The notes below the pieces were generated by a model. It saw only the letters and a list, made by a program, of their open reading frames with translations. It did not search any database and had not been told where the DNA came from. A DNA stretch of 32,000 bases. It comes from Candidatus Methylomirabilis limnetica. Its GTDB lineage: Bacteria; Methylomirabilota; Methylomirabilia; Methylomirabilales; Methylomirabilaceae. This document shows, in pieces, positions 1 to 12,236 of this stretch. The stretch's first letter is position 1. Every line of letters begins with the position of its first letter. The DNA lies in contig NZ_NVQC01000036.1 in NCBI RefSeq assembly GCF_003044035.1, forward strand, positions 1-32,000, given 5' to 3'. Made by a program: the position numbers and the translations under genes.

Positions 1-813
1 GGATTTCGACCGCAGCATGGAAAAGCCTCCGGCTTTCCCATGCTTCCCACAGGCCCGACTATCACTGAACAGAGGTGGGTTCCTTTTGCTTTATCACGGT
101 GGGTCCCTTTTGCGTTGTCAAAACGAGAAGGCTTCCGCCACTGGTGAAAAGCAACGAACCGGCGAATCCATGCCACATAGGCCTGTTCCGTGCGGTAGGC
201 GTAGTGTTCGAGCCGCAAGCATTCCCGCACCCGTGCATCCAACGCCCGCCAATTGACGGCCGTGTGTGTCTTCACCGTCGGCGCCCCTGTCGAGGGTGGA
301 GCCTCGGCAGTCCGAAGCGCCGGAGGGGCAGGGCCAACCGCGGCGCCGGGCTCCATGGCCAGGAGAACATGTTTCCGCTTGACATCCCTACGGCCTGCCG
401 CATATGTTTTGTGCGCATCCTTGCGACTACGCAACTCAGCGACAGGCGTGGGGGTTGGAGGGGAGGGTGGCTCTGAAGCGCTTTTCAGCTCACTTGCATC
501 AAGTCGCGGCGCCAGCGCGATGCCCCGCAACTGCTCGTAGTACAGTTCCATGGCGTCGCGAGCCTGCTGGACCTGCCAGTTGGACACACCCCCGCGTTGT
601 GCGATGTCCGCAAGAAATACCTCGATCTCCGTCCGTCCTAGGTCCCTGCGCCTGCGTCCCGGATGCCGCGCGAAAAACCTTCGCACCCACGCCATGCAGT
701 ACGGGATGGTTTTCTCCTGTGCCCCGGCCTCCCGCAGCACGGCGATGTACCCCCCCCGGCCACCGCGGCTGCGGGTTCAGCGGCGCCACCCCCCGTCGAG
801 TCGTTTGAGGCAT
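1..813 (-). CDS. Tyrosine recombinase, integron-integrase-like (N-terminal part only, runs off the left edge; possibly degraded)
   Basis: It is absent from the ORF track because it has no stop in the window. My hand scan found the minus-strand frame (codons 749-747, 746-744, ...) stop-free from 776 down to base 1. My translation reads ...YIAVLREAGAQEKTIPYCMAWVRRFFARHPGRRRRDLGRTEIEVFLADIAQRGGVSNWQVQQARDAMELYYEQ...NWRALDARVRECLRLEHYAYRTEQAYVAWIRRFVAFHQWRKP... The second block resembles the IntI1 N-terminus as I remember it ([29 protein letters not shown]). The ATG at 813-811 is in a different frame and joins only across a homopolymer run (C8 on the + strand, 750-757). A GTG at 740 is an alternative start. 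The catalytic domain and the IntI-specific insertion lie outside the window. Confidence 0.6.
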
Positions 814-867
814 ATCATCCCTCCCCCACCAGAATGCTATGCGTCGCGATTTCATGGAACATACTGG

Positions 868-896
868 TTGTCAAGCGGTTTTTAGACGCATATCAT
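868..896 (+). promoter_or_regulatory. Sigma70-like promoter pointing into the cassette array (Pc-like)
   Basis: TTGTCA (868-873), a 17-nt spacer, then TATCAT (891-896) on the + strand. It lies between the recombinase start and the first cassette. Confidence 0.4.
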
Positions 897-926
897 CCCA
901 GCGCGGCGTGCCGGCGGGATGCTATT

Positions 927-951
927 TTTGAGGCATAAGACTCTGTTAGCC
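927..951 (+). other. attI-like simple site ending in the core GTTAGCC
   Basis: The sequence is tttGAGGCATAAGactctGTTAGCC. The right core GTTAGCC (945-951) approximates GTTRRRY, and an imperfect inverted left core GGCATAAG lies 5 nt upstream. The motif TTTGAGGCATA recurs upstream at 804-814, with a variant TTTAGACGCATA at 881-892, each followed by TCATCCC. This resembles the direct-repeat integrase-binding sites of attI. Confidence 0.45.
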
Positions 952-982
952 CTTTCACCTCCAGACCTATGGGAGTCACTCG

Positions 983-1903
983 ATGAAAACGCCAATTGCA
1001 TGGATGCCAGTGATGGGCCGAATGGATCAGCGAAAAGACAGCATCATCTTCAAAGGCGGAAAGATCGACATTCCTGGGCAGGAACAGGAAGGATCTGAAA
1101 TCGGTCTTTTCCTGTGCAACCGAACCTTCTCAGAAGGGTCAATTGCAGTTGATGTCCGATTTGATGACGTTTCGCCAACCAGTTGTGCCGATGTCGTGCT
1201 CTTCTACGATCCTCAAAACCGATACACACTAAACGCGGGTCTTACGTATCAAAACCTATTCGCCATACGCCACTTCGACACACGATGGACTATTCATGCC
1301 ACAGCCGGCGCGGCAAACGCAATCGAAGCAAAGCGAACATATCGCCTTGAGGCATCATTGCGTGGTTCCACTGTTGCCTTGAAGTGCGACGGGGTAGAGG
1401 TTCTTCGAGTTGTGCTGCCTTTTGTGCTTCCACAAAGTCAGGTAGGCGTGTTCGGCGTTGATCGAACCAATATCGAGTTCAAGAACTTCCTGGTGAGCCC
1501 GGTCAAGCCTCGTGCCTTTGTAGTAATGCAGTTCAGTGCGCCATACAACGATGTCTACTCCGAAGTCATCAAGCAGGTATGCGACGAAGAGGAGGTAGAC
1601 GTAACCCGAATCGATGAAGAAGCTGGCCCCGGCTTAATCATTCAGGACATCAATCGAACGATCCGTGAGTCAAAGATCATTATTGCCGACATAAGTCCAA
1701 TCAACGCGAATGTGTTTTACGAGGTTGGGTTTGCACACGCCTTAAATAAGCCAACGATTCTTCTCGCCGAAAAAGGTACCAAGCTACCGTTTGATGTTTC
1801 TCCGTTCCGTACGCTCTTCTACGAGAACTCAATTGGAGGCAAGCGGTTGTTTGAAGAAGGTCTTCGGAAACATATCCGTGCCTGCCTACAGCAAAAGGGC
1901 TAA
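983..1903 (+). CDS. Uncharacterised two-domain protein: N-terminal beta-sandwich (LamG/DUF1080-like, tentative) plus C-terminal nucleoside 2-deoxyribosyltransferase/TIR-like Rossmannoid domain; integron cassette 1
   Basis: The ORF is 306 aa with a GGGAG Shine-Dalgarno (SD) 7 nt upstream of the ATG. C-terminal motif: FVVMQF...IIIADISPINANVFYEVGFAHALNKPTILLAE...LPFDV. This hhhADhS-x3-N-x-NVFYEhGhAHAhxKPhhhh pattern is what I associate with NDT/TIR-like (STIR-class) domains. The N-terminal half is rich in beta-strand pattern and ends ...VGVFGVDRTNIEFKNFLV, reminiscent of DUF1080/concanavalin-like folds. The domain calls come from pattern memory, not a search. Confidence 0.85.
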   Translation: MKTPIAWMPVMGRMDQRKDSIIFKGGKIDIPGQEQEGSEIGLFLCNRTFSEGSIAVDVRFDDVSPTSCADVVLFYDPQNRYTLNAGLTYQNLFAIRHFDTRWTIHATAGAANAIEAKRTYRLEASLRGSTVALKCDGVEVLRVVLPFVLPQSQVGVFGVDRTNIEFKNFLVSPVKPRAFVVMQFSAPYNDVYSEVIKQVCDEEEVDVTRIDEEAGPGLIIQDINRTIRESKIIIADISPINANVFYEVGFAHALNKPTILLAEKGTKLPFDVSPFRTLFYENSIGGKRLFEEGLRKHIRACLQQKG

Positions 1904-1963
1904 CCCGGCAGTCCACCGGACCTGCGCGAAAAGCCGCGCAGGCCGGTGACTTCAACGTTGGAC
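1898..1963 (+). other. attC-like recombination site of cassette 1
   Basis: R'' is GGCTAAC (1898-1904, containing the TAA stop of the cassette ORF) and R' is GTTGGAC (1957-1963). The central imperfect palindrome is CACCGG-A-CCTGCGCG/AAAAGC/CGCGCAGG-CCGGTG, with extrahelical bases. R'' is the exact reverse complement of the GTTAGCC at the start of the cassette (945-951), as expected for a mobile integron cassette. Confidence 0.6.
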
Positions 1964-2032
1964 GAAAATGAGAAAATAGAGATGAGATCAAAACATCTTG
2001 CATCTGTGTTGCGAATGTGACACAATAGGATT

Positions 2033-2290
2033 ATGAAAACAGCAGTCGTCCACGCGCGTATTGAACCGCAAACAAAGCAAAAGGCCGAAGGGGTCCTTCG
2101 CAAGCTTGGCCTTACTCCCACGGAGGCGATCCGTATCTTCTACCGGCAGATATCCCTCCGTGGCGGATTGCCTTTCCCGGTCGCGATTCCGAACGAGCTG
2201 ACGGCGTCTACCCTGGAGAAGAGCCGTCGCGGCGAACACGTTCAGGAATACGAGTCTTTAGAAGCAATGTTCAAGAATTGGGAGAAATGA
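2033..2290 (+). CDS. dinJ: Type II antitoxin, DinJ/RelB family
   Basis: The 85-aa ORF reads MKTAVVHARIEPQTKQKAEGVLRKLGLTPTEAIRIFYRQI...GLPFP, which aligns by eye with E. coli DinJ. Its stop overlaps the toxin start in an ATGA. Confidence 0.85.
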   Translation: MKTAVVHARIEPQTKQKAEGVLRKLGLTPTEAIRIFYRQISLRGGLPFPVAIPNELTASTLEKSRRGEHVQEYESLEAMFKNWEK

Positions 2291-2559
2291 AGAAGGTCTC
2301 GCAGACCAGGCAGTTTTCCCGGGATATCAAGCGCATGCGGAAACGAGGGGAAGACCTGCACAAGCTGCAGGAGGTTGTCGAGCTTCTGGCCGAGGGCACT
2401 CCGCTTCCAGCAAACCACAGAGACCATCCACTCATCGGACCGTGGCAGCCGTCGCGCGACTGCCACATTGAAGCCGACTGGATCTTGATTTACACTGCAG
2501 ATAAAGACTCGCTTCGGCTTGAACGGACCGGCACGCACCGCGACCTTTTCAAGAAATGA
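2287..2559 (+). CDS. yafQ: Type II toxin, YafQ family mRNA interferase
   Basis: ...HRDHPLIGPWQPSRDCHIEADWILIYTADKDSLRLERTGTHRDLF matches the YafQ signature (DHPL.G.W...RD.H.EPDWILIY...L.FERTGTH). The ATG at 2287 overlaps the dinJ stop. The track ORF begins at a TTG at 2278. Confidence 0.85.
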   Translation: MKKVSQTRQFSRDIKRMRKRGEDLHKLQEVVELLAEGTPLPANHRDHPLIGPWQPSRDCHIEADWILIYTADKDSLRLERTGTHRDLFKK

Positions 2560-2563
2560 GATC

Positions 2564-2602
2564 GTCCAACAGGTCGCTCCAGTCGACGCCGTTAGAACGG
2601 CG
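2564..2602 (+). other. Partial or degenerate attC-like site of cassette 2
   Basis: GTCCAAC (2564-2570) lies 4 nt after the yafQ stop. It fits RYYYAAC and is the exact reverse complement of the GTTGGAC that opens cassette 2 (1957-1963). It is followed by a small hairpin, CGCCGT-TAGA-ACGGCG. No convincing full-length right arm or R' was found. A second GTCCAAC occurs at 2850-2856. Confidence 0.35.
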
Positions 2603-2620
2603 CGGATGAGCTTTGTCATT

Positions 2621-2746
2621 AGGCTAAGGTAGGCCGATAAGATGACCTCAGCTTGACCCCGCGTGCGGGTACCCTCAGCGCGCCCACTGCATTTCCCCGG
2701 AGTAGATCTTCATGATCTTCGTAAGCAGGTCGATGGCGTCGGAGCG
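2621..2746. repeat. Direct repeat copy 1 (aldolase 3' end plus downstream flank)
   Basis: It aligns with 3739-3863. A 25-nt block aggctaaggtaggNcgataagatga has one difference, the middle is more diverged, and the 54-nt coding tail has three differences (hand alignment). Confidence 0.8.
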
Positions 2747-2750
2747 CCGA
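2675..2750 (-). pseudogene. Orphan 3'-terminal fragment of a class I aldolase gene (duplicate of the fba tail)
   Basis: The minus-strand translation ...RRRSDAIDLLTKIMKIYSGEMQ matches the C-terminus of the intact aldolase at 3801-4733 (...RRRSDAIDLLTKIMTIYSGEMQ*). Here the stop codon is replaced by Trp. Confidence 0.8.
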
Positions 2751-2976
2751 CGGTTAGTACCTGCAAGCAGTTCCACCACTGTCAGCAGAAGAGTATAATG
2801 CTCAGAAGCGATCCCCCGTGCCGAGGAGAATGCAATGGCTACCAAAGTTGTCCAACTGACAGATGACGAACTAAGAGCCATAATCGACGAAGTCGTCGCG
2901 CAAACCACCATCAATCTTGACAGTTGACCTGTTTATGGACTATATTCAGTCATACTCAAGTAATGGAGGTACCATT

Positions 2977-3252
2977 ATGAAACTGTCCAGCCAGATCAAG
3001 CCTATCAGTTATCTGAAAGCCCATGCCGCCGAAATCGTAAGGTGTCTGGACGAGCAGCGCGAGCCACTGGTCATCACGCAGAACGGCGAAGCCAAAGTAG
3101 TCATGCAGGGCATCAAAAGCTACGAGCAAACTCAAGACACGTTGGCTCTCCTGAAAATCCTGGCACTCGGAACCCGTCAGATCGAGGAAGGCAAGGTCCA
3201 GCCCGCTGAGAATGTACTCAAACGCCTGCGCGAGCGACGCGGTACCCACTGA
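2977..3252 (+). CDS. phd: Type II antitoxin, Phd/YefM family
   Basis: MKLSSQIKPISYLKAHAAEIVRCLDEQREPLVITQNGEAKVVMQGIKSYEQTQDTLALLK is a typical Phd/YefM N-terminus. A GGAGG SD precedes the ATG at 2977. The track ORF starts upstream at a TTG at 2917. Confidence 0.85.
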   Translation: MKLSSQIKPISYLKAHAAEIVRCLDEQREPLVITQNGEAKVVMQGIKSYEQTQDTLALLKILALGTRQIEEGKVQPAENVLKRLRERRGTH

Positions 3253-3578
3253 TGCCGTTCGCGGTTCTGCTGACCAGTGACGCAGCGCGTGATCTCGACG
3301 AAATTTATGACTATATCGCTCTGCACGATGTACCTCAAAAAGCAGATTACGTATTGGAACAGATTGAGAAAGCTTTCTCCAGACTGTCCGAATCCCCAGA
3401 GCGGGGTGCCTATCCGAAAGAGCTGCTATCGCTGGGCATTCGGGAATACCGCGAGGTTTTCTTCAAACCCTACCGCATCATTTACCGAGTTATGGGTAAT
3501 AACGTGTACGTTCTGCTGATTGTTGATGGTCGTCGTGACATGCAGTCGCTGCTGCAGCGGCGATTGCTCGAGGCGTAG
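3252..3578 (+). CDS. parE: Type II toxin, RelE/ParE family
   Basis: The 108-aa ORF has a start overlapping the antitoxin stop (TGATG). The motif ...YREVFFKPYRIIYRVMGNNVYVLLIVDGRRDMQ is typical of ParE/RelE-fold toxins. Confidence 0.85.
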   Translation: MPFAVLLTSDAARDLDEIYDYIALHDVPQKADYVLEQIEKAFSRLSESPERGAYPKELLSLGIREYREVFFKPYRIIYRVMGNNVYVLLIVDGRRDMQSLLQRRLLEA

Positions 3579-3628
3579 TGCACATTGCCCGGTTGGTATA
3601 TGTGGACGAGATATGGGAAGCCTTGAAC

Positions 3629-3657
3629 AAAAAAGAATTCGGGCATTATGGCCGAAC
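3629..3657 (-). terminator. Possible rho-independent terminator (minus strand) downstream of fba
   Basis: The minus strand reads gTTCGGCcataatgCCCGAAttcTTTTTTg, a short imperfect stem followed by a T6 run. Confidence 0.3.
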
Positions 3658-3738
3658 AAGGGCATTCAGTAGATTCTGGAATACTTGGGTTGTGGAAGCT
3701 CGATCGCCGCGACCGGTGCCACTGATGCTCAGCGCGTC

Positions 3739-3863
3739 AGGCTAAGGTAGGACGATAAGATGAGCGATGCAGACCCTGCACGCGGGTGCCCGCAACGTGC
3801 CTACTGCATCTCCCCGGAGTAGATCGTCATGATCTTCGTGAGCAGGTCGATGGCGTCGGAGCG
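3739..3863. repeat. Direct repeat copy 2 (functional 3' end of fba plus flank)
   Basis: See copy 1 at 2621-2746. Confidence 0.8.
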
Positions 3864-4733
3864 GCGGCGCTGGAACGAGTTGCGGCCGATGATCGTGCCG
3901 AACCTACCGCCATCGCGGATAGCCCGGATCTCATCCAGGACGGCATTATCGTCCTCCTTTGCCGCCCCGCCGGAGAAGATCACCATCCGTCGCCCATCGA
4001 AAGCGCTCTGGACCACATGCCGGACGCGATCCGCCAAGGTCCCGATCGGTACCTTGGTCTTCTCGTAGACCTTCTTGGCCTCCGGCTGCTCGATGTGGGC
4101 GGTGGGTAGCTTCACCTTGATGAGGTGGGCGCCAAGCTGCGCGGCGATCTGTGCCGCGTAGGCCACCACGTCGATCGCCGTCTCGCCCTCCTTGCTTAGA
4201 CCGGTGCCGCGCGGGTACGACCAGCAGACGGCGATCAGGCCGGACGCCTTGGCCTCAGCCGCGATCTCGCGGAACTGCTGGTACATCGTAGCGCAATGAG
4301 CCGAGCCGGGGTAGATCGTGAAGCCCACGCCGACACACCCCAGGCGCAGCGCATCTTTCACGCTGGCCGTCACCGCCGAAAGCGGGTCCTTATCGTCGTA
4401 CAGCACGTCGTGGCTATTGAGCTTCAGGATCATAGGGATCTGGCCGGCGAAGTCCGCCGCGCCTGCCTCGATGAAGCCAAGCGGCGCCGCGTAGGCGCTC
4501 AAGCGCGCCTCAATCGCCAGCTCAAAGTGGTAGTGCGGGTGGTAGGCAGGCGGATTGATCGCGAAGCTACGCGCCGGACCGTGTTCAAAACCTTGATCCA
4601 CCGGCAAGATCACCAGTCGGCCTGTGCCGCCAAGGTAGCCATGGTTCAACAGGCGCGCCAAGTTCGTCAGCTTTCCCGGATTGTCACCACTGTACCATCC
4701 GAGAATCTCACGGGTACGTGTATTCAGGCGCAT
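3801..4733 (-). CDS. fba: Fructose-bisphosphate aldolase, class I (DhnA/FbaB type)
   Basis: The 310-aa ORF contains LVILPVDQGFEHGP...ILKLN...LIKVKLP, which resembles DhnA-family class I aldolases. Confidence 0.85.
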   Translation of the reverse strand: MRLNTRTREILGWYSGDNPGKLTNLARLLNHGYLGGTGRLVILPVDQGFEHGPARSFAINPPAYHPHYHFELAIEARLSAYAAPLGFIEAGAADFAGQIPMILKLNSHDVLYDDKDPLSAVTASVKDALRLGCVGVGFTIYPGSAHCATMYQQFREIAAEAKASGLIAVCWSYPRGTGLSKEGETAIDVVAYAAQIAAQLGAHLIKVKLPTAHIEQPEAKKVYEKTKVPIGTLADRVRHVVQSAFDGRRMVIFSGGAAKEDDNAVLDEIRAIRDGGRFGTIIGRNSFQRRRSDAIDLLTKIMTIYSGEMQ

Positions 4734-4795
4734 CGCCTTCTTCGAATCGGCCCGCAGGTCAAGTTCCGGCCCGGGCCGCGCGCAGGGTGAGCGCG

Positions 4796-5815
4796 TTACC
4801 GCTTCCCTTGGTAGAACTCCTCGGCGAGGATCACGTCATCGGGGCTGCCGATGATTATTGGCACGCGCTGGTGATATTCCGACGGCTCGATGTCCAGGAT
4901 CCGCTCATCGCCGGTGCTGGCCCGTCCCCCAGCCTGCTCCACGATATAGGCCATTGGTGCTACCTCATAGAGAAGTCGGAGCTTTCCTTTGGCATTCTTT
5001 CCCTCGCCGGCCTCGCCCGGGTACATAAAGAGCCCGCCTTCAAGCAGCGTGCGGTGCAGATCCGCCACCATCGACCCGACGTAGCGGAGCGAATAAGGGC
5101 GGCCTGTCGCTTTGTCCGGCGTACTCAGATAATCGACCACCCGGCGAGTCGGTTCGGACCAGCGATGGTAGTTCCCATGGTTCACACTGTACGTCTTGCC
5201 CTGTCGCGGAATCCGAATGTCGGGGTGTGTCAGGACGTAATCGTCCAGCGTATGATCCCATGTAAAGCCATGCACTGCATGACCAGCGGCGTAAACGAAC
5301 ATGGTACTGGGGCCATACATCACATAGCCGGCCGCCACCTGCTCTGTCCCTTTCCGCAAGATATCCGCCGCCATATGTTCCCGCCCATGGCCACGCCGGT
5401 GCCGCACCGAAAAGATCGTTCCCACTGTCCCATTGATGTCGATATTCGACGAGCCATCGACCGGATCGAAACAGACCACATAACTCCCGGGGAGGCAGTT
5501 GCGGTCGACATGTAACGGCGCTTCCATCTCCTCTGAGACCATCGTACAGACGAGGCCGGTCTCCTTTAGCGCATCCACGAGCACATCGTTCGACCAGAGA
5601 TCAAGCTGGGCGATCTGCTCTCCCTGAACGTTTATCTCCCCGGTATATCCCAATTTGCCGTGCAGCGCCGCTCTATTCACCTCCCGCGAAATCAGTTTAG
5701 AGACAGTGCCTATCTTAATGAGAAGCGCGCCCAGGTCGCCCTCTATCGGTGTCCGGTCGTCCAGAAGATGACGGGTAAGGGTGATGCCTTTGCTGATCAT
5801 CGGATCCCCCATCAT
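4796..5815 (-). CDS. fbp: Fructose-1,6-bisphosphatase class 1 (likely FBP/SBPase)
   Basis: The 339-aa ORF contains ITLTRHLL..., VVCFDPVDGSSNID, YVGSMVADLHRTLL.GG.F.YP and KLRLLYE, all class I FBPase hallmarks. There are several possible Met starts (M1/M2/M6). Confidence 0.9.
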   Translation of the reverse strand: MMGDPMISKGITLTRHLLDDRTPIEGDLGALLIKIGTVSKLISREVNRAALHGKLGYTGEINVQGEQIAQLDLWSNDVLVDALKETGLVCTMVSEEMEAPLHVDRNCLPGSYVVCFDPVDGSSNIDINGTVGTIFSVRHRRGHGREHMAADILRKGTEQVAAGYVMYGPSTMFVYAAGHAVHGFTWDHTLDDYVLTHPDIRIPRQGKTYSVNHGNYHRWSEPTRRVVDYLSTPDKATGRPYSLRYVGSMVADLHRTLLEGGLFMYPGEAGEGKNAKGKLRLLYEVAPMAYIVEQAGGRASTGDERILDIEPSEYHQRVPIIIGSPDDVILAEEFYQGKR

Positions 5816-11606: not shown

Positions 11607-12236
11607 ATGATCTCCGCACGGGAAGCACTCAAACGTCTTCGTGAAGGAAACCGCCGTTTCACCTCGAACGTGCAGAGCTTCGACACGCTTCTGAGCCAGA
11701 CCAGACGCGGTGAGCTCCTCACAGGCCAGCAGCCTGTCGCAATCATTCTTGGCTGTTCAGATTCACGTGTTCCAGCAGAAATCGTGTTCGACCAGGGGCT
11801 CGGCGATCTCTTCGTCATCCGGGTTGCTGGTAACATTGTCGCTCCGTGCCTAGTCGGGAGCGTTGAGTATGCCGCTGCCTACTGCGGAACACGTCTAGTG
11901 GTTGTACTTGGCCATTCCCAGTGCGGCGCTATTCTGGCCACATTAGAGGCACTGAGGCAACCTATGACGGTCCAGTCCCGCAATCTGCACTCCATCATCG
12001 ATCATATCCGCCCGTCAGTCGAGGGCCTCCTCAGTGCTGAACCCCAGCGCGATGCGAACGACCTTATTCGAGATGCAGTTCGCGCTAACGTCCTCGCCTC
12101 TGCTAACCACCTGCGACACGGCTCTGAACTTCTCGAGAAACTGATCCTCAATGATGGCCTGCTTGTCGTTGGCGCTGAGTACTCGCTCGAGACTGGTCTG
12201 GTCGAATTCTTCGATGGCGTACCGGACGCTGCCTGA
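11607..12236 (+). CDS. Beta-class carbonic anhydrase
   Basis: It has the zinc ligand motifs LGCSDSRV and GHSQCGA, plus FVIRVAGN. Confidence 0.9.
   Translation: MISAREALKRLREGNRRFTSNVQSFDTLLSQTRRGELLTGQQPVAIILGCSDSRVPAEIVFDQGLGDLFVIRVAGNIVAPCLVGSVEYAAAYCGTRLVVVLGHSQCGAILATLEALRQPMTVQSRNLHSIIDHIRPSVEGLLSAEPQRDANDLIRDAVRANVLASANHLRHGSELLEKLILNDGLLVVGAEYSLETGLVEFFDGVPDAA

What the first reader, a model, noticed from the sequence alone, without database searches (positions are those of the whole stretch)
1..2602. Small chromosomal integron: intI-like gene, attI-like site, outward promoter, and cassettes that obey the R'/R'' rule
Seen directly: a minus-strand recombinase ORF whose N-terminus resembles IntI. 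The cassette genes lie divergent from it, on the + strand. The 7-mer opening cassette 1 (GTTAGCC, 945-951) is the exact reverse complement of the 7-mer at that cassette's 3' end (GGCTAAC, 1898-1904, which contains the ORF stop). The site closing cassette 1 ends in GTTGGAC (1957-1963). The exact complement of that, GTCCAAC, sits 4 nt after the stop of the next cassette's last gene (2564-2570). This pairing is expected when cassettes are cut and rejoined at G|TT by an integron integrase, and two consecutive exact matches are unlikely by chance. The 1898-1963 site folds as an imperfect hairpin with bulged bases, like attC. An integron next to a core Calvin-cycle operon in this type of organism would be worth documenting.
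Basis: partly seen in the sequence, partly recalled or inferred. Interest (0 to 1): 0.8.

Follow-up and report, generated by a model that had tools for sequence, protein, structure and literature searches.

The report
Decayed chromosomal integron in Methylomirabilis
This is a genuine but disabled integron (a bacterial gene-capture platform) holding three captured gene cassettes beside the carbon-fixation genes of a methane-oxidising Methylomirabilis bacterium. It is a well-documented new example of a known kind of element, not a new kind.

Summary
All four heptamers are where stated. The minus-strand gene is the 5' part of an integron integrase (intI). A 99%-identical uninterrupted allele, with one frameshift repaired, scores 452 bits on the integron-integrase model (cut-off 265). 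In this window intI is dead: an IS21-family element cuts it at about position 121, and an 8-C run (750-757) shifts the frame.

- **attI junction:** in eleven relatives the sequence is conserved up to GTT (945-947). A different first cassette follows in each.
- **attC sites:** covariance models trained only on relatives hit the 32-kb window at three places only: 1898-1963 (E 5e-8), 2564-2624 (E 5e-4) and 3651-3735 (E 0.012).
- **Cassette mobility:** other metagenomes carry the RelB/YafQ cassette behind three other cassettes. One variant has a TerC cassette inserted exactly at 1957|1958.

The array runs past the reported end, to about 3741. Its third cassette (Phd/ParE) carries a diverged copy of the neighbouring aldolase gene's 3' end. 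This is a new member of a known kind, of moderate interest.

The parts
1..121 (.). End of an IS21-family insertion sequence that interrupts intI. Terminal repeats GGTGGGTYCCTTTTGC lie at 74-89 and 98-113. The element extends leftwards out of the window.
   Evidence: The two repeats occur nowhere else in the window. The same repeats sit about 80-110 nt upstream of a transposase gene in L087 that scores 224 bits on NF033546, IS21 family transposase, cut-off 160. Homology to the uninterrupted intI of L093 starts at window 127. Several metagenome contigs break at window 74 or 99, as expected for a multi-copy element.
122..813 (-). intI pseudogene remnant, about 229 codons. The ATG is at 813-811. 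It encodes an extra N-terminal SAM-like domain, a Pro/Ala-rich linker, and then the first ~40 residues of the canonical IntI. One extra C in the C8 run at 750-757 shifts the frame.
   Evidence: Matches TIGR02249 positions 4-43 and PF13495. Homologues read MPQTTRRGVAPLNPQPRWPGG-YIAVLRE without a shift. The reconstructed full-length allele scores 452 bits on TIGR02249.
814..951 (+). attI site. The crossover lies between G945 and T946, within GTTAGCC. There are three direct copies of a TTGAGGCATA-type motif at 806-823 (the first overlaps the intI ATG at 811-813, so it starts 8 nt before the range given), 884-899 and 930-940.
   Evidence: The sequence is conserved in ten aligned loci up to GTT and unrelated after it. 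L091/L092 share GTTAGCC and then diverge.
868..896 (+). Promoter-like site facing the cassettes (TTGTCA, 17-nt spacer, TATCAT). Candidate Pc.
   Evidence: Consensus scan, 10 of 12 matches. The -35 region (TGTCAAG) is largely conserved in relatives; the -10 hexamer varies among them. No expression data.
946..1957 (+). Cassette 1. ORF 983-1903 encodes 306 aa with a C-terminal TIR / nucleoside-deoxyribosyltransferase-like domain and an unassigned N-terminal domain. GC content is 0.51, against 0.59 for the backbone.
   Evidence: PADLOC 'Effector TIR' PDLC00733, E 2e-13, residues 169-300. Pfam PF05014 scores below its cut-off. GC values. The cassette begins TTAGCC, the complement of its own R'' GGCTAA.
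1898..1963 (+). attC1. R'' is GGCTAAC and R' is GTTGGAC, with an unpaired spacer on each side and an L stem with two bulged bases on the 5' arm.
   Evidence: Model R2 41.7 bits, E 4.6e-8. Model R1 25.4 bits. DNA fold z = -3.7 and -4.2.
1958..2618 (+). Cassette 2, a RelB/DinJ antitoxin (2033-2290) and YafQ/RelE toxin (2287-2559) pair.
   Evidence: Pfam and NCBIfam matches. The same cassette, always starting TTGGAC, follows TerC, DUF4160/DUF2442 or DUF2283 cassettes in L176, L178, L179 and L180. Homology breaks at window 1955-1956 in L176, L178, L179 and L181 (at 1941 in L180) and, on the right, at 2620-2621.
2564..2624 (+). attC2. R'' is GTCCAAC and R' is ATTAGGC, so the crossover is A|TT rather than G|TT. 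Two substitutions weaken the stem compared with the copies in relatives.
   Evidence: R2 24.7 bits, E 5e-4 in the window. The same site scores 42.6 bits in L176, L178 and L181. L180 diverges right after ...GTCA|TT.
2619..3735 (+). Cassette 3, composite. It holds a diverged copy (2621-2752) of the array-flanking DNA plus the last 25 codons of the aldolase gene, a GTTAGTA junction at 2753-2759, a promoter-like site at 2917-2946, a Phd/YefM antitoxin gene (2977-3252) and a ParE toxin gene (3252-3578).
   Evidence: Direct repeat 2621-2752 versus 3739-3869, 84-88% identical. Pfam matches. Promoter-like site.
3651..3741 (+). attC3, degenerate. R'' is GCCGAAC. The L stem has the usual two bulges, and R' has decayed to GTCAGGC. 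It is homologous to the single attC next to the aldolase gene in Methylomirabilis sp. bin48.
   Evidence: R2 19.0 bits, E 0.012, with the R' positions unaligned. Two-bulge fold. The bin48 site L006 4812-4909 scores 36.4 bits.
3742..4733 (-). Backbone flank. Class I fructose-bisphosphate aldolase gene (3801-4733), followed by FBPase, RpiA and the RuBisCO genes (Calvin cycle cluster).
   Evidence: NF006704 500 bits. Neighbouring genes carry FBPase, Rib_5-P_isom_A, RuBisCO_large and RuBisCO_small domains. 95% aa identity to Ca. Methylomirabilis sp. bin48.

Best explanation
Window 1-3741 is a chromosomal integron of a Candidatus Methylomirabilis (NC10) bacterium. Its platform has decayed.

**Layout.** An integron-integrase gene (intI, minus strand) faces an attI site whose crossover is G|TT at 945|946. 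Three cassettes were inserted there in one orientation, each ending in an attC site:
1. a TIR-like effector gene,
2. a RelB/YafQ toxin-antitoxin pair,
3. a Phd/ParE toxin-antitoxin pair.

The array abuts the 3' end of the class I aldolase gene of the Calvin-cycle cluster.

**Mechanism (inferred from established integron biology).** IntI binds the folded single strand of attC. The bulged bases of attC define its polarity. IntI exchanges strands between the first and second base of the R' core. Each cassette therefore carries the last six bases of its own core at its 5' end. That is why a cassette's first bases are complementary to its own R''.

**Shown here:**
- the family identity of the integrase;
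- the conserved attI junction with variable cassettes after it;
- attC sites recognised by an independent covariance model;
- natural variants in which cassettes are inserted or exchanged exactly at the predicted crossovers.

**Inferred:**
- In this strain the platform cannot recombine by itself, because intI is cut by an IS21-family element and frameshifted. The cassettes are frozen unless an integrase acts in trans.
- The first cassette is read from the promoter-like site at 868-896.
- The two toxin-antitoxin cassettes use their own promoters and help retain the array.
For: **Integrase**
- The window fragment matches TIGR02249 positions 4-43.
- Allele L093, with one frameshift repaired, scores 452 bits (cut-off 265) over the whole model. 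XerC/XerD models score about 155 bits against cut-offs of about 330.
- An intact 516-aa relative, P0123, scores 443 bits.

**attI**
- Homology to six relatives stops at window 947-951.
- Ten distinct junctions read ...GGGATGCTATTTTTGAGGCATAATACTAT|GTT followed by unrelated sequence. An eleventh is in L091.

**attC**
- The chained R'/R'' rule holds for four consecutive cassettes in L101, and in L086, L129, L130, L118 and L141.
- Models R1 and R2 were trained only on relatives, and no training site is more than 70% identical to the window's sites.
- In the window they hit only 1898-1963, 2564-2624 and 3651-3735, all on the + strand and all after stop codons.
- Across 58 sites, 83% of cells are paired, against 31-38% when the partners are slid by 1-3 columns. 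There are 190 double-sided changes against 78 in shuffles, and all 13 L-stem pairs covary.
- 51 of the 58 hits in relatives lie on the strand opposite to intI.

**Mobility**
- L176, L003 and L005 carry a TerC cassette inserted exactly between attC1 and TTGGAC.
- L179 and L180 carry cassette 2 behind other cassettes.
- L180 diverges after attC2 at A|TT.

**Composition**
- Cassettes are 0.51-0.54 GC, against 0.59 for the backbone and 0.65 for intI.
Against: - The window itself holds only the first ~229 codons of intI, without the catalytic domain. Family membership therefore rests on a near-identical allele from another sample, and that allele is itself frameshifted.
- attC2 has ATT instead of the canonical GTT and scores only 24.7 bits here.
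- attC3 is marginal (E 0.012) and has lost its R' core.
- The promoter is a consensus match only.
- No recombination or expression was measured.
- In every sample that carries the exact ParE protein the array is the same as in the window, apart from the TerC insertion polymorphism. There is therefore no sign of ongoing shuffling in this particular strain.
Confidence: 0.92

Rival explanations
1. The recombinase is a generic XerC/D-type or phage/island integrase. The heptamers and hairpins are then chance matches or transcription terminators in a fixed gene neighbourhood.
For: Only the N-terminal SAM-like part of the gene lies in the window, and that domain is shared by many tyrosine recombinases. 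A loose R''/hairpin/R' scanner finds 48 candidate sites in the 64 kb of both strands. An exact 7-mer complement alone occurs downstream of 15% of control GTT sites.
Against: The orthologous full-length allele passes the integron-integrase cut-off and fails the XerC/XerD cut-offs. Independent covariance models hit only the three predicted sites. Relatives show eleven different first cassettes and natural insertion and exchange variants at the exact crossovers. No hairpin is followed by a T run.
Confidence: 0.02
2. The array is still actively reshuffled in this strain, because a second, intact integron integrase elsewhere in the genome acts in trans on these attC sites.
For: Cassette gain or loss (the TerC cassette) occurs between genomes that are 99% identical in the flanking cassettes, so recombination is recent in the population. 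Intact members of the integrase clade exist (P0123). A group IIC-attC intron, which targets attC sites, has been reported elsewhere in the Ca. M. oxyfera genome (PMC3001079).
Against: No second intI or further attC site lies in the 32-kb window. The window's attC2 carries stem-weakening substitutions relative to its copies in other genomes (24.7 versus 42.6 bits), and attC3 has lost its core. Both fit relaxed selection. The rest of the genome could not be searched.
Confidence: 0.15
3. The third 'cassette' (2619-3735) is not an integron product. The A-B-A structure would instead have arisen by homologous recombination or tandem duplication at the aldolase 3' end, or by an island that targets that gene end and carries a replacement copy of it.
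For: Two 131-nt copies, 84-88% identical, flank the Phd/ParE module. That is the generic footprint of Campbell-type integration through a shared segment. attC3 is weak (E 0.012). The 7-mer rule fails for this unit: no GCCTAAT lies downstream.
Against: The left edge of the duplicated segment coincides with the R' core of attC2 and of attC3 (ATT|AGGC and GTC|AGGC). Its right edge is a GTT (GTTAGTA, 2753). attC3 has the family's two-bulge geometry and a well-scoring homologue at the same place in bin48. R'' GCCGAA differs from the complement of the cassette's first six bases (TTAGGC) at one position only. No second integrase or island genes are present.
Confidence: 0.35

Closest known systems
Degraded chromosomal integrons: attC clusters (CALIN) with a neighbouring intI pseudogene, as catalogued by IntegronFinder (Cury et al. 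2016, PMC4889954)
   Same: A short cluster of attC-bounded cassettes lies next to an inactivated integron-integrase gene, with an insertion sequence involved. That paper reports intI pseudogenes near 15 of 279 CALIN and IS elements in a quarter of complete integrons.
   Different: Here attI and the first 229 codons of intI are still in place. The decay can therefore be read step by step (IS21 insertion, homopolymer frameshift), and sister genomes still show cassette turnover.
Xanthomonas chromosomal integrons fixed next to a housekeeping gene (ilvD), with frequently inactivated intI. The ilvD location and the frequent inactivation of intI are from my own knowledge; see also bioRxiv 10.1101/2025.06.18.660453, listed.
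   Same: A small sedentary integron sits beside a core metabolic gene. Cassette content varies between strains and the integrase is often decayed.
   Different: The phylum differs (NC10 rather than Gammaproteobacteria), and the neighbour is the Calvin-cycle aldolase gene. The integrase carries a ~200-aa N-terminal extension that IntI1 and VchIntIA, as I know them, do not have.
Vibrio cholerae superintegron (from my own knowledge)
   Same: A chromosomal array in which toxin-antitoxin cassettes (RelBE, ParE and Phd families) with their own promoters are interspersed and are thought to stabilise the array.
   Different: Three cassettes rather than about 180. The attC sites are heterogeneous (no pair is close in sequence) rather than the uniform VCR repeats.
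Class 1 integron platform (intI1, attI1 with a simple site plus direct repeats DR1/DR2, Pc)
   Same: The intI and cassette orientations are divergent. The crossover is at the first base of a GTT core. Direct repeats lie upstream of the crossover in attI, and the R'/R'' complementarity rule applies.
   Different: The IntI1-type equivalog model is not passed (345 bits against a cut-off of 435). There is no Tn402 backbone and there are no resistance genes. The candidate promoter lies in attI rather than inside intI. One attC type here recombines at A|TT.

Membership tests
Integron (intI + attI + attC-bounded cassettes) | A tyrosine recombinase of the IntI family, including the IntI-specific additional domain | tested here: met
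   The window fragment covers TIGR02249 positions 4-43 only. The allele in L093 is 99.4% identical over window 127-614. With one 1-nt frameshift repaired it scores 452 bits (cut-off 265) over positions 4-315, including ...[31 protein letters not shown].TRRHH....
Integron (intI + attI + attC-bounded cassettes) | intI intact in this locus | tested here: not met
   The gene is cut at about 121 by an IS21-family end. One extra C in the run at 750-757 shifts the frame relative to homologues.
Integron (intI + attI + attC-bounded cassettes) | attI beside the intI start: conserved on the integrase side, crossover at G|TT, unrelated sequence beyond it in different genomes | tested here: met
   Eleven distinct junctions share ...TTTTTGAGGCATAA.ACT.TGTT and diverge after it.
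Integron (intI + attI + attC-bounded cassettes) | attC sites: R'' (..AAC) and R' (GTT..) cores, unpaired spacers, an L stem with extrahelical bases on the double-prime arm, a variable loop, one orientation, and a position at the 3' end of each cassette | tested here: met
   Covariance models from relatives hit 1898-1963 (E 5e-8), 2564-2624 (E 5e-4) and 3651-3735 (E 0.012), and nothing else. Bulges lie 17 and 23 nt from the start of R''. Covariation across 58 sites is strong. Deviations: attC2 has ATT, and the R' of attC3 has decayed.
Integron (intI + attI + attC-bounded cassettes) | Cassettes are independently mobile units bounded at the crossover | tested here: met
   A TerC cassette is inserted at 1957|1958 in L176, L003 and L005. 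Cassette 2 follows three other cassettes in L176/L178, L179 and L180 and always starts TTGGAC. L180 diverges after attC2 at A|TT.
Integron (intI + attI + attC-bounded cassettes) | A platform promoter (Pc) that transcribes the cassettes | tested here: inconclusive
   A promoter-like site lies at 868-896 on the cassette strand, 10 of 12 matches. Its -35 region is largely conserved in relatives; the -10 hexamer varies. There are no transcription data.
Integron (intI + attI + attC-bounded cassettes) | IntI-catalysed recombination of the folded attC bottom strand with attI | not testable with these tools
   This needs a recombination assay.
Sedentary chromosomal integron in the sense of Cury et al. 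2016 | More than 19 attC sites, or presence in all genomes of the species | tested here: inconclusive
   Only 3 attC sites are present (4 in the TerC variant), so the size criterion is not met. The same locus recurs in contigs from at least 5 samples. No set of complete genomes of the species was available.
Mobile integron classes 1-5 | An integrase of classes 1-5, carried on a transposon or plasmid | tested here: not met
   The IntI1-type equivalog NF011946 scores 345 bits against a cut-off of 435. The flanks are chromosomal Calvin-cycle genes.
XerC/XerD or phage-type integrase island | The recombinase passes XerC/XerD or phage-integrase models, and the island has fixed content | tested here: not met
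   XerC scores 153 bits and XerD 156 bits, against cut-offs of 335 and 330. The content varies between genomes.

The most novel reading that the evidence does not exclude
Cassette 3 is a natural record of an integron integrase capturing chromosomal backbone DNA. In a related strain, the integrase would have excised the last cassette (Phd/ParE) through a secondary site inside the aldolase gene. That would produce a circle carrying attC3 plus 131 nt of flank and aldolase 3' end. The circle would then have been re-inserted here at the core of attC2. This reading explains three things:
- the duplicated segment starts at an R' core;
- it ends at a GTT (2753);
- it is 12-16% diverged from the resident copy.

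It would be a field example of one route by which integrons pick up non-cassette DNA.
Probability: 0.3. Interest if true: 0.6.

Novelty: new member of a known kind. Interest (0 to 1): 0.4.

Why it matters
It documents an integron in Methylomirabilis (NC10). I found no published description of one there. Two full-text searches returned nothing specific. The one paper that mentions both words lists an attC-targeting intron in Ca. M. oxyfera as lying outside any integron.

It is also an unusually complete natural demonstration of integron rules from metagenomes alone:
- the same cassette appears in four contexts;
- an insertion polymorphism falls exactly at the predicted crossover;
- an attC type is exchanged at A|TT.

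Three side observations could interest specialists:
- an integrase clade with a second N-terminal SAM-like domain;
- an attI with three direct repeats;
- a cassette that contains a fragment of the neighbouring housekeeping gene.

For the organism, it marks a hot spot of gene flux (a TIR-like defence candidate and toxin-antitoxin pairs) right next to its carbon-fixation genes.

Tried and rejected
- **Rfam:** a scan of 1-4200 at E <= 10 gave only chance matches and no attC family.
- **Hairpin scanner:** my loose R''/hairpin/R' scanner is not specific on its own, with 48 hits in 64 kb. I used it only together with the chaining rule and a control.
- **Alignment:** MAFFT alignments of natural attC sites misplaced the 3' arms. 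I therefore bootstrapped a model from end-anchored trimmed sites and rebuilt it from Infernal's own alignment of 58 natural sites.
- **Genome collection:** the scan gave only short contigs for the two closest genomes, both ending just past the aldolase gene. It identified the organism but not the array in those genomes.
- **Sequence left of the window:** it could not be retrieved for this strain, because all of its contigs that reach the left end break in the IS end.
- **Cassette 2/3 boundary:** I first considered GTTAGAA at 2591 as the R' of attC2 and rejected it, because the resulting site would be only about 34 nt long. I also considered GCTTGAC near 2650 and rejected it, because the model and the L180 breakpoint place the end at 2624.
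- **Deaminase gene:** I asked whether the deaminase gene next to the aldolase in bin48 is a cassette that also occurs beside intI in L093. No attC follows it in L093, and the relation remains unresolved.
- **Literature:** the supplementary tables of the IntegronFinder paper are not held, so I could not check whether FP565575 was scored there.
- **ORF1 N-terminal domain:** sequence searches of solved structures and of Pfam gave nothing significant.

Full report
**Observation.**
- GTTAGCC at 945-951;
- GGCTAAC at 1898-1904, overlapping the stop codon of ORF 983-1903;
- GTTGGAC at 1957-1963;
- GTCCAAC at 2564-2570, 4 nt after the stop codon of the YafQ gene.

Region 1898-1963 folds as single-stranded DNA into a long imperfect hairpin. 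Its z-score against shuffles is -3.7 on the top strand and -4.2 on the bottom strand. Complementary heptamers alone are not rare. In the rest of the window, 15% of GTT sites have an exact complement 100-3000 nt downstream. Only 2.6% also have a hairpin of the right geometry there, and 0.7% have one as stable as the weaker of the two sites. Two chained steps are therefore improbable, at roughly 5e-5 to 7e-4.

**Organism and surroundings.** The aldolase gene at 3801-4733 is 95% identical at protein level to that of Candidatus Methylomirabilis sp. bin48, and 89% identical to another Methylomirabilota genome. It is followed by genes for FBPase and ribose-5-phosphate isomerase, and by divergent RuBisCO large and small subunit genes. 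The locus therefore does sit beside the Calvin-cycle cluster of an NC10 bacterium.

**The recombinase.**
- The minus-strand frame from 813 down to about 122 matches the integron-integrase model TIGR02249, but only at positions 4-43 of 315.
- Homologues show that the true N-terminus is MPQTTRRGVAPLNPQPRWPGG followed by YIAVLRE. In the window these two parts lie in different frames, because the C run at 750-757 has eight bases rather than the seven implied by a continuous reading frame.
- The same run is present in contig L001 from another assembly, which is 100% identical over 74-5000.
- Homology to integrases stops at about 122-127. There the sequence becomes two tandem 16-nt repeats, at 74-89 and 98-113.
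- The same repeats lie about 80-110 nt upstream of an IS21-family transposase gene in a related contig (224 bits, cut-off 160).
- Contigs of this strain from several samples break inside this repeat region, as expected for a multi-copy element.
- Contig L093 is 99.4% identical to window 127-614 and continues uninterrupted.
- Its integrase has a 1-nt deletion within ...DPRSG/HTRRHH.... With that repaired, and with the window's N-terminus added, it scores 452 bits on TIGR02249 (cut-off 265) across the whole model. The match includes the integron-specific insertion. XerC and XerD models stay at about 155 bits, against cut-offs of about 330.

The gene family is therefore integron integrase. This copy is dead twice over, and the sister allele is dead in a third way.

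**attI.**
- DNA homology between the window and relatives with 78-91% identical intI regions ends at window 947-951 in every case.
- Ten distinct junctions read ...GGGATGCTATTTTTGAGGCATAA(T/G)ACT(A/C)T|GTT, followed by unrelated sequence. An eleventh, in L091/L092, shares GTTAGCC and then carries a different gene.
- This is the expected signature of an attI crossover.
- The attI region holds three direct copies of a TTGAGGCATA-type motif. One overlaps the intI start codon and one lies immediately before the crossover.
- A promoter-like site (TTGTCA, 17-nt spacer, TATCAT) faces the cassettes at 868-896. Only the sequence match is shown.

**attC sites.**
- Starting from each attI junction, I searched for the reverse complement of the cassette's first 7-mer, followed by a hairpin ending in NTT. 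This recovers four consecutive cassettes in L101 and single cassettes in L086, L129 and L130. Linking scanner hits by the same rule adds pairs in L118 and L141.
- Most of these sites share one geometry: R'', then 3-8 unpaired bases, a stem of 4-6 pairs, one bulged base on the 5' arm at position 16-17, a second stem, a second bulged base at position 23, a variable loop, and R'.
- Bulges on the R''-L'' arm are the polarity marks of canonical attC sites (established knowledge of attC structure).
- A covariance model built from nine such sites of relatives found 58 sites in 77 related loci. Of these, 51 lie on the strand opposite to intI.
- On that alignment 83% of cells are paired, against 31-38% when partners are slid. 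There are 190 double-sided changes against 78 in shuffles, and all 13 L-stem pairs covary. The alignment was fitted to the structure, so it leans that way.
- A second model was built from those 58 sites. None of them is more than 70% identical to a window site.
- Run without filters over the whole window, the second model gives three hits and nothing else below E = 1:
  - 1898-1963: 41.7 bits, E 4.6e-8;
  - 2564-2624: 24.7 bits, E 5e-4;
  - 3651-3735: 19.0 bits, E 0.012.
- All three are on the + strand, after the stop codons of ORF1, yafQ and parE.

**Cassette mobility in nature.** I looked up where the exact RelB protein of cassette 2 is encoded and compared those contigs with the window.
- L176, L003 and L005 carry attC1 followed by G|TTAGAC and a 1.15-kb TerC cassette with its own attC (41.8 bits). 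After that attC comes G|TTGGAC and cassette 2. The flanks are 99% identical to the window. This is an insertion polymorphism exactly at 1957|1958.
- L179 has cassette 2 behind a DUF4160/DUF2442 cassette.
- L180 has it behind a DUF2283 cassette whose attC ends ...GTCA|TTGGAC.
- In all contexts cassette 2 begins TTGGAC, the complement of its own R'' GTCCAA.
- L180 diverges from the window after attC2 at ...TTTGTCA|TT. Exchange therefore also occurs at this A|TT site.
- The window's copy of attC2 has two stem-weakening substitutions and scores 24.7 bits, against 42.6 bits for the copies in L176, L178 and L181. This fits decay after loss of the integrase.

**Cassette contents.**
- *Cassette 1.* It encodes a 306-aa protein. 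The C-terminal 130 residues match a TIR-type defence effector profile (E 2e-13) and, below cut-off, nucleoside deoxyribosyltransferase. The N-terminal half is unassigned.
- *Cassette 2.* A RelB/YafQ toxin-antitoxin pair.
- *Cassette 3.* A Phd/ParE toxin-antitoxin pair, preceded by its own strong promoter-like site at 2917-2946.
- *Composition.* Cassette GC is 0.51-0.54, against 0.59 for the rest of the window.

**The third cassette and the duplicated aldolase end.**
- Region 2621-2752 is an 84-88% identical copy of 3739-3869. The latter is the DNA that follows the array plus the last 25 codons of the aldolase gene.
- The copy begins inside the R' core of attC2 (ATT|AGGC), just as the resident segment begins inside the decayed core of attC3 (GTC|AGGC). 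The copy ends at a GTT (GTTAGTA, 2753).
- attC3 is homologous to the single well-scoring attC that lies between a deaminase gene and the aldolase gene in bin48 (36.4 bits).
- My preferred reading has probability about 0.3. A circle was excised in a related strain through a secondary site within the aldolase gene, and was re-inserted here at attC2. Cassette insertion outside att sites by integron integrases has been reported (bioRxiv 10.1101/2022.09.11.507474, abstract).
- Homologous recombination through the shared segment gives the same A-B-A structure and cannot be excluded.

**Comparison and novelty.**
- The locus meets the sequence-level criteria of an integron, except for an intact integrase. 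It fits the described category of a short attC cluster with a neighbouring intI pseudogene (PMC4889954).
- It is not a class 1-5 mobile integron. With three attC sites it does not meet the size criterion for a sedentary chromosomal integron.
- I found no paper describing an integron in Methylomirabilis or NC10. One paper lists a group IIC-attC intron in Ca. M. oxyfera as not lying within an integron. The library is incomplete, and the large IntegronFinder surveys may already include this genome.
- The integrases of this clade carry a ~200-aa N-terminal extension made of a second SAM-like domain and a low-complexity linker. An intact 516-aa example exists (P0123). The extension alone has 444 relatives at E <= 1e-3, most of them fragments. 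A literature search for such an extension gave nothing relevant.

**Verdict.** Three corrections apply: the platform is inactivated, the array is longer than reported, and the promoter is unproven. It is a new member of a known kind, and the case is unusually well supported by comparative data. The interest is moderate. The taxon, the integrase extension, the A|TT exchange and the backbone fragment inside a cassette are worth a note, but none overturns current understanding.

Noticed in passing
window 500-813 (minus strand); intact example P0123: The integron integrases of this clade have a ~200-aa N-terminal extension. It consists of a second Phage_int_SAM_4-like domain (residues ~20-105) and a Pro/Ala-rich linker ahead of the normal IntI. 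The extension alone has 444 relatives at E <= 1e-3. I found no published description of it.
   Followed up: partly
window 806-823, 884-899, 930-940: Three direct copies of a TTGAGGCATA(T/G)CATCCC-like motif lie in attI and are conserved in nine relatives. The first overlaps the intI start codon and the last abuts the crossover. They could be accessory integrase-binding sites, possibly for the extra N-terminal domain.
   Followed up: partly
window 1-121: The end of an IS21-family element, with two 16-nt terminal repeats, interrupts intI. Assemblies of this strain from several samples break here, so the element is probably multi-copy in the genome.
   Followed up: yes
window 2621-2752 versus 3739-3869: A diverged duplicate (84-88% identical) of the aldolase 3' end and its downstream flank lies inside the third cassette. 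Its edges fall at integron core-like sites.
   Followed up: partly
window 983-1903: The cassette 1 protein combines an unassigned N-terminal domain with a TIR / deoxyribosyltransferase-like C-terminal domain (PADLOC TIR effector, E 2e-13). It is a candidate anti-phage defence gene carried as an integron cassette.
   Followed up: partly
L093 about 1385-1455 and 2250-2330 (locus coordinates): Two copies of a ~95-nt repeat (CTTCGACAGTGCCCGCTCTTTCACGCGAATGGAGGGTGCGGCCACGG...) flank a BrnT/BrnA-like gene pair just downstream of the uninterrupted intI. The attC model does not hit them, and their nature is unknown.
   Followed up: no
L006 4812-4909 and L093 2389-2634: In Methylomirabilis sp. bin48 a deaminase-like gene and a single attC lie directly next to the aldolase gene. 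In the window's own species the same deaminase gene lies on the far side of intI. Either the whole integron was deleted in bin48 or it was inserted in this lineage.
   Followed up: partly
L087 (reverse strand) about 2700-2745; L091 (reverse strand) about 11960-11995: A shared GGGATTCCGGGGACAC.ATACTAAATTC element follows the cassettes in two relatives. In L091 it lies next to an IS200/RAYT-like ORF and seems to interrupt an attC.
   Followed up: no
proteins P0003, P0008, P0011, P0111; L093: Many metagenomic homologues of this integrase are truncated, internally deleted or frameshifted in different ways. This points to repeated independent inactivation of intI in this clade.
   Followed up: partly
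window 2564-2624; L180 499-570: One attC type in this family ends in ATT rather than GTT and is still found exchanged between contexts. The integrase therefore tolerates A at the first core position.
   Followed up: partly
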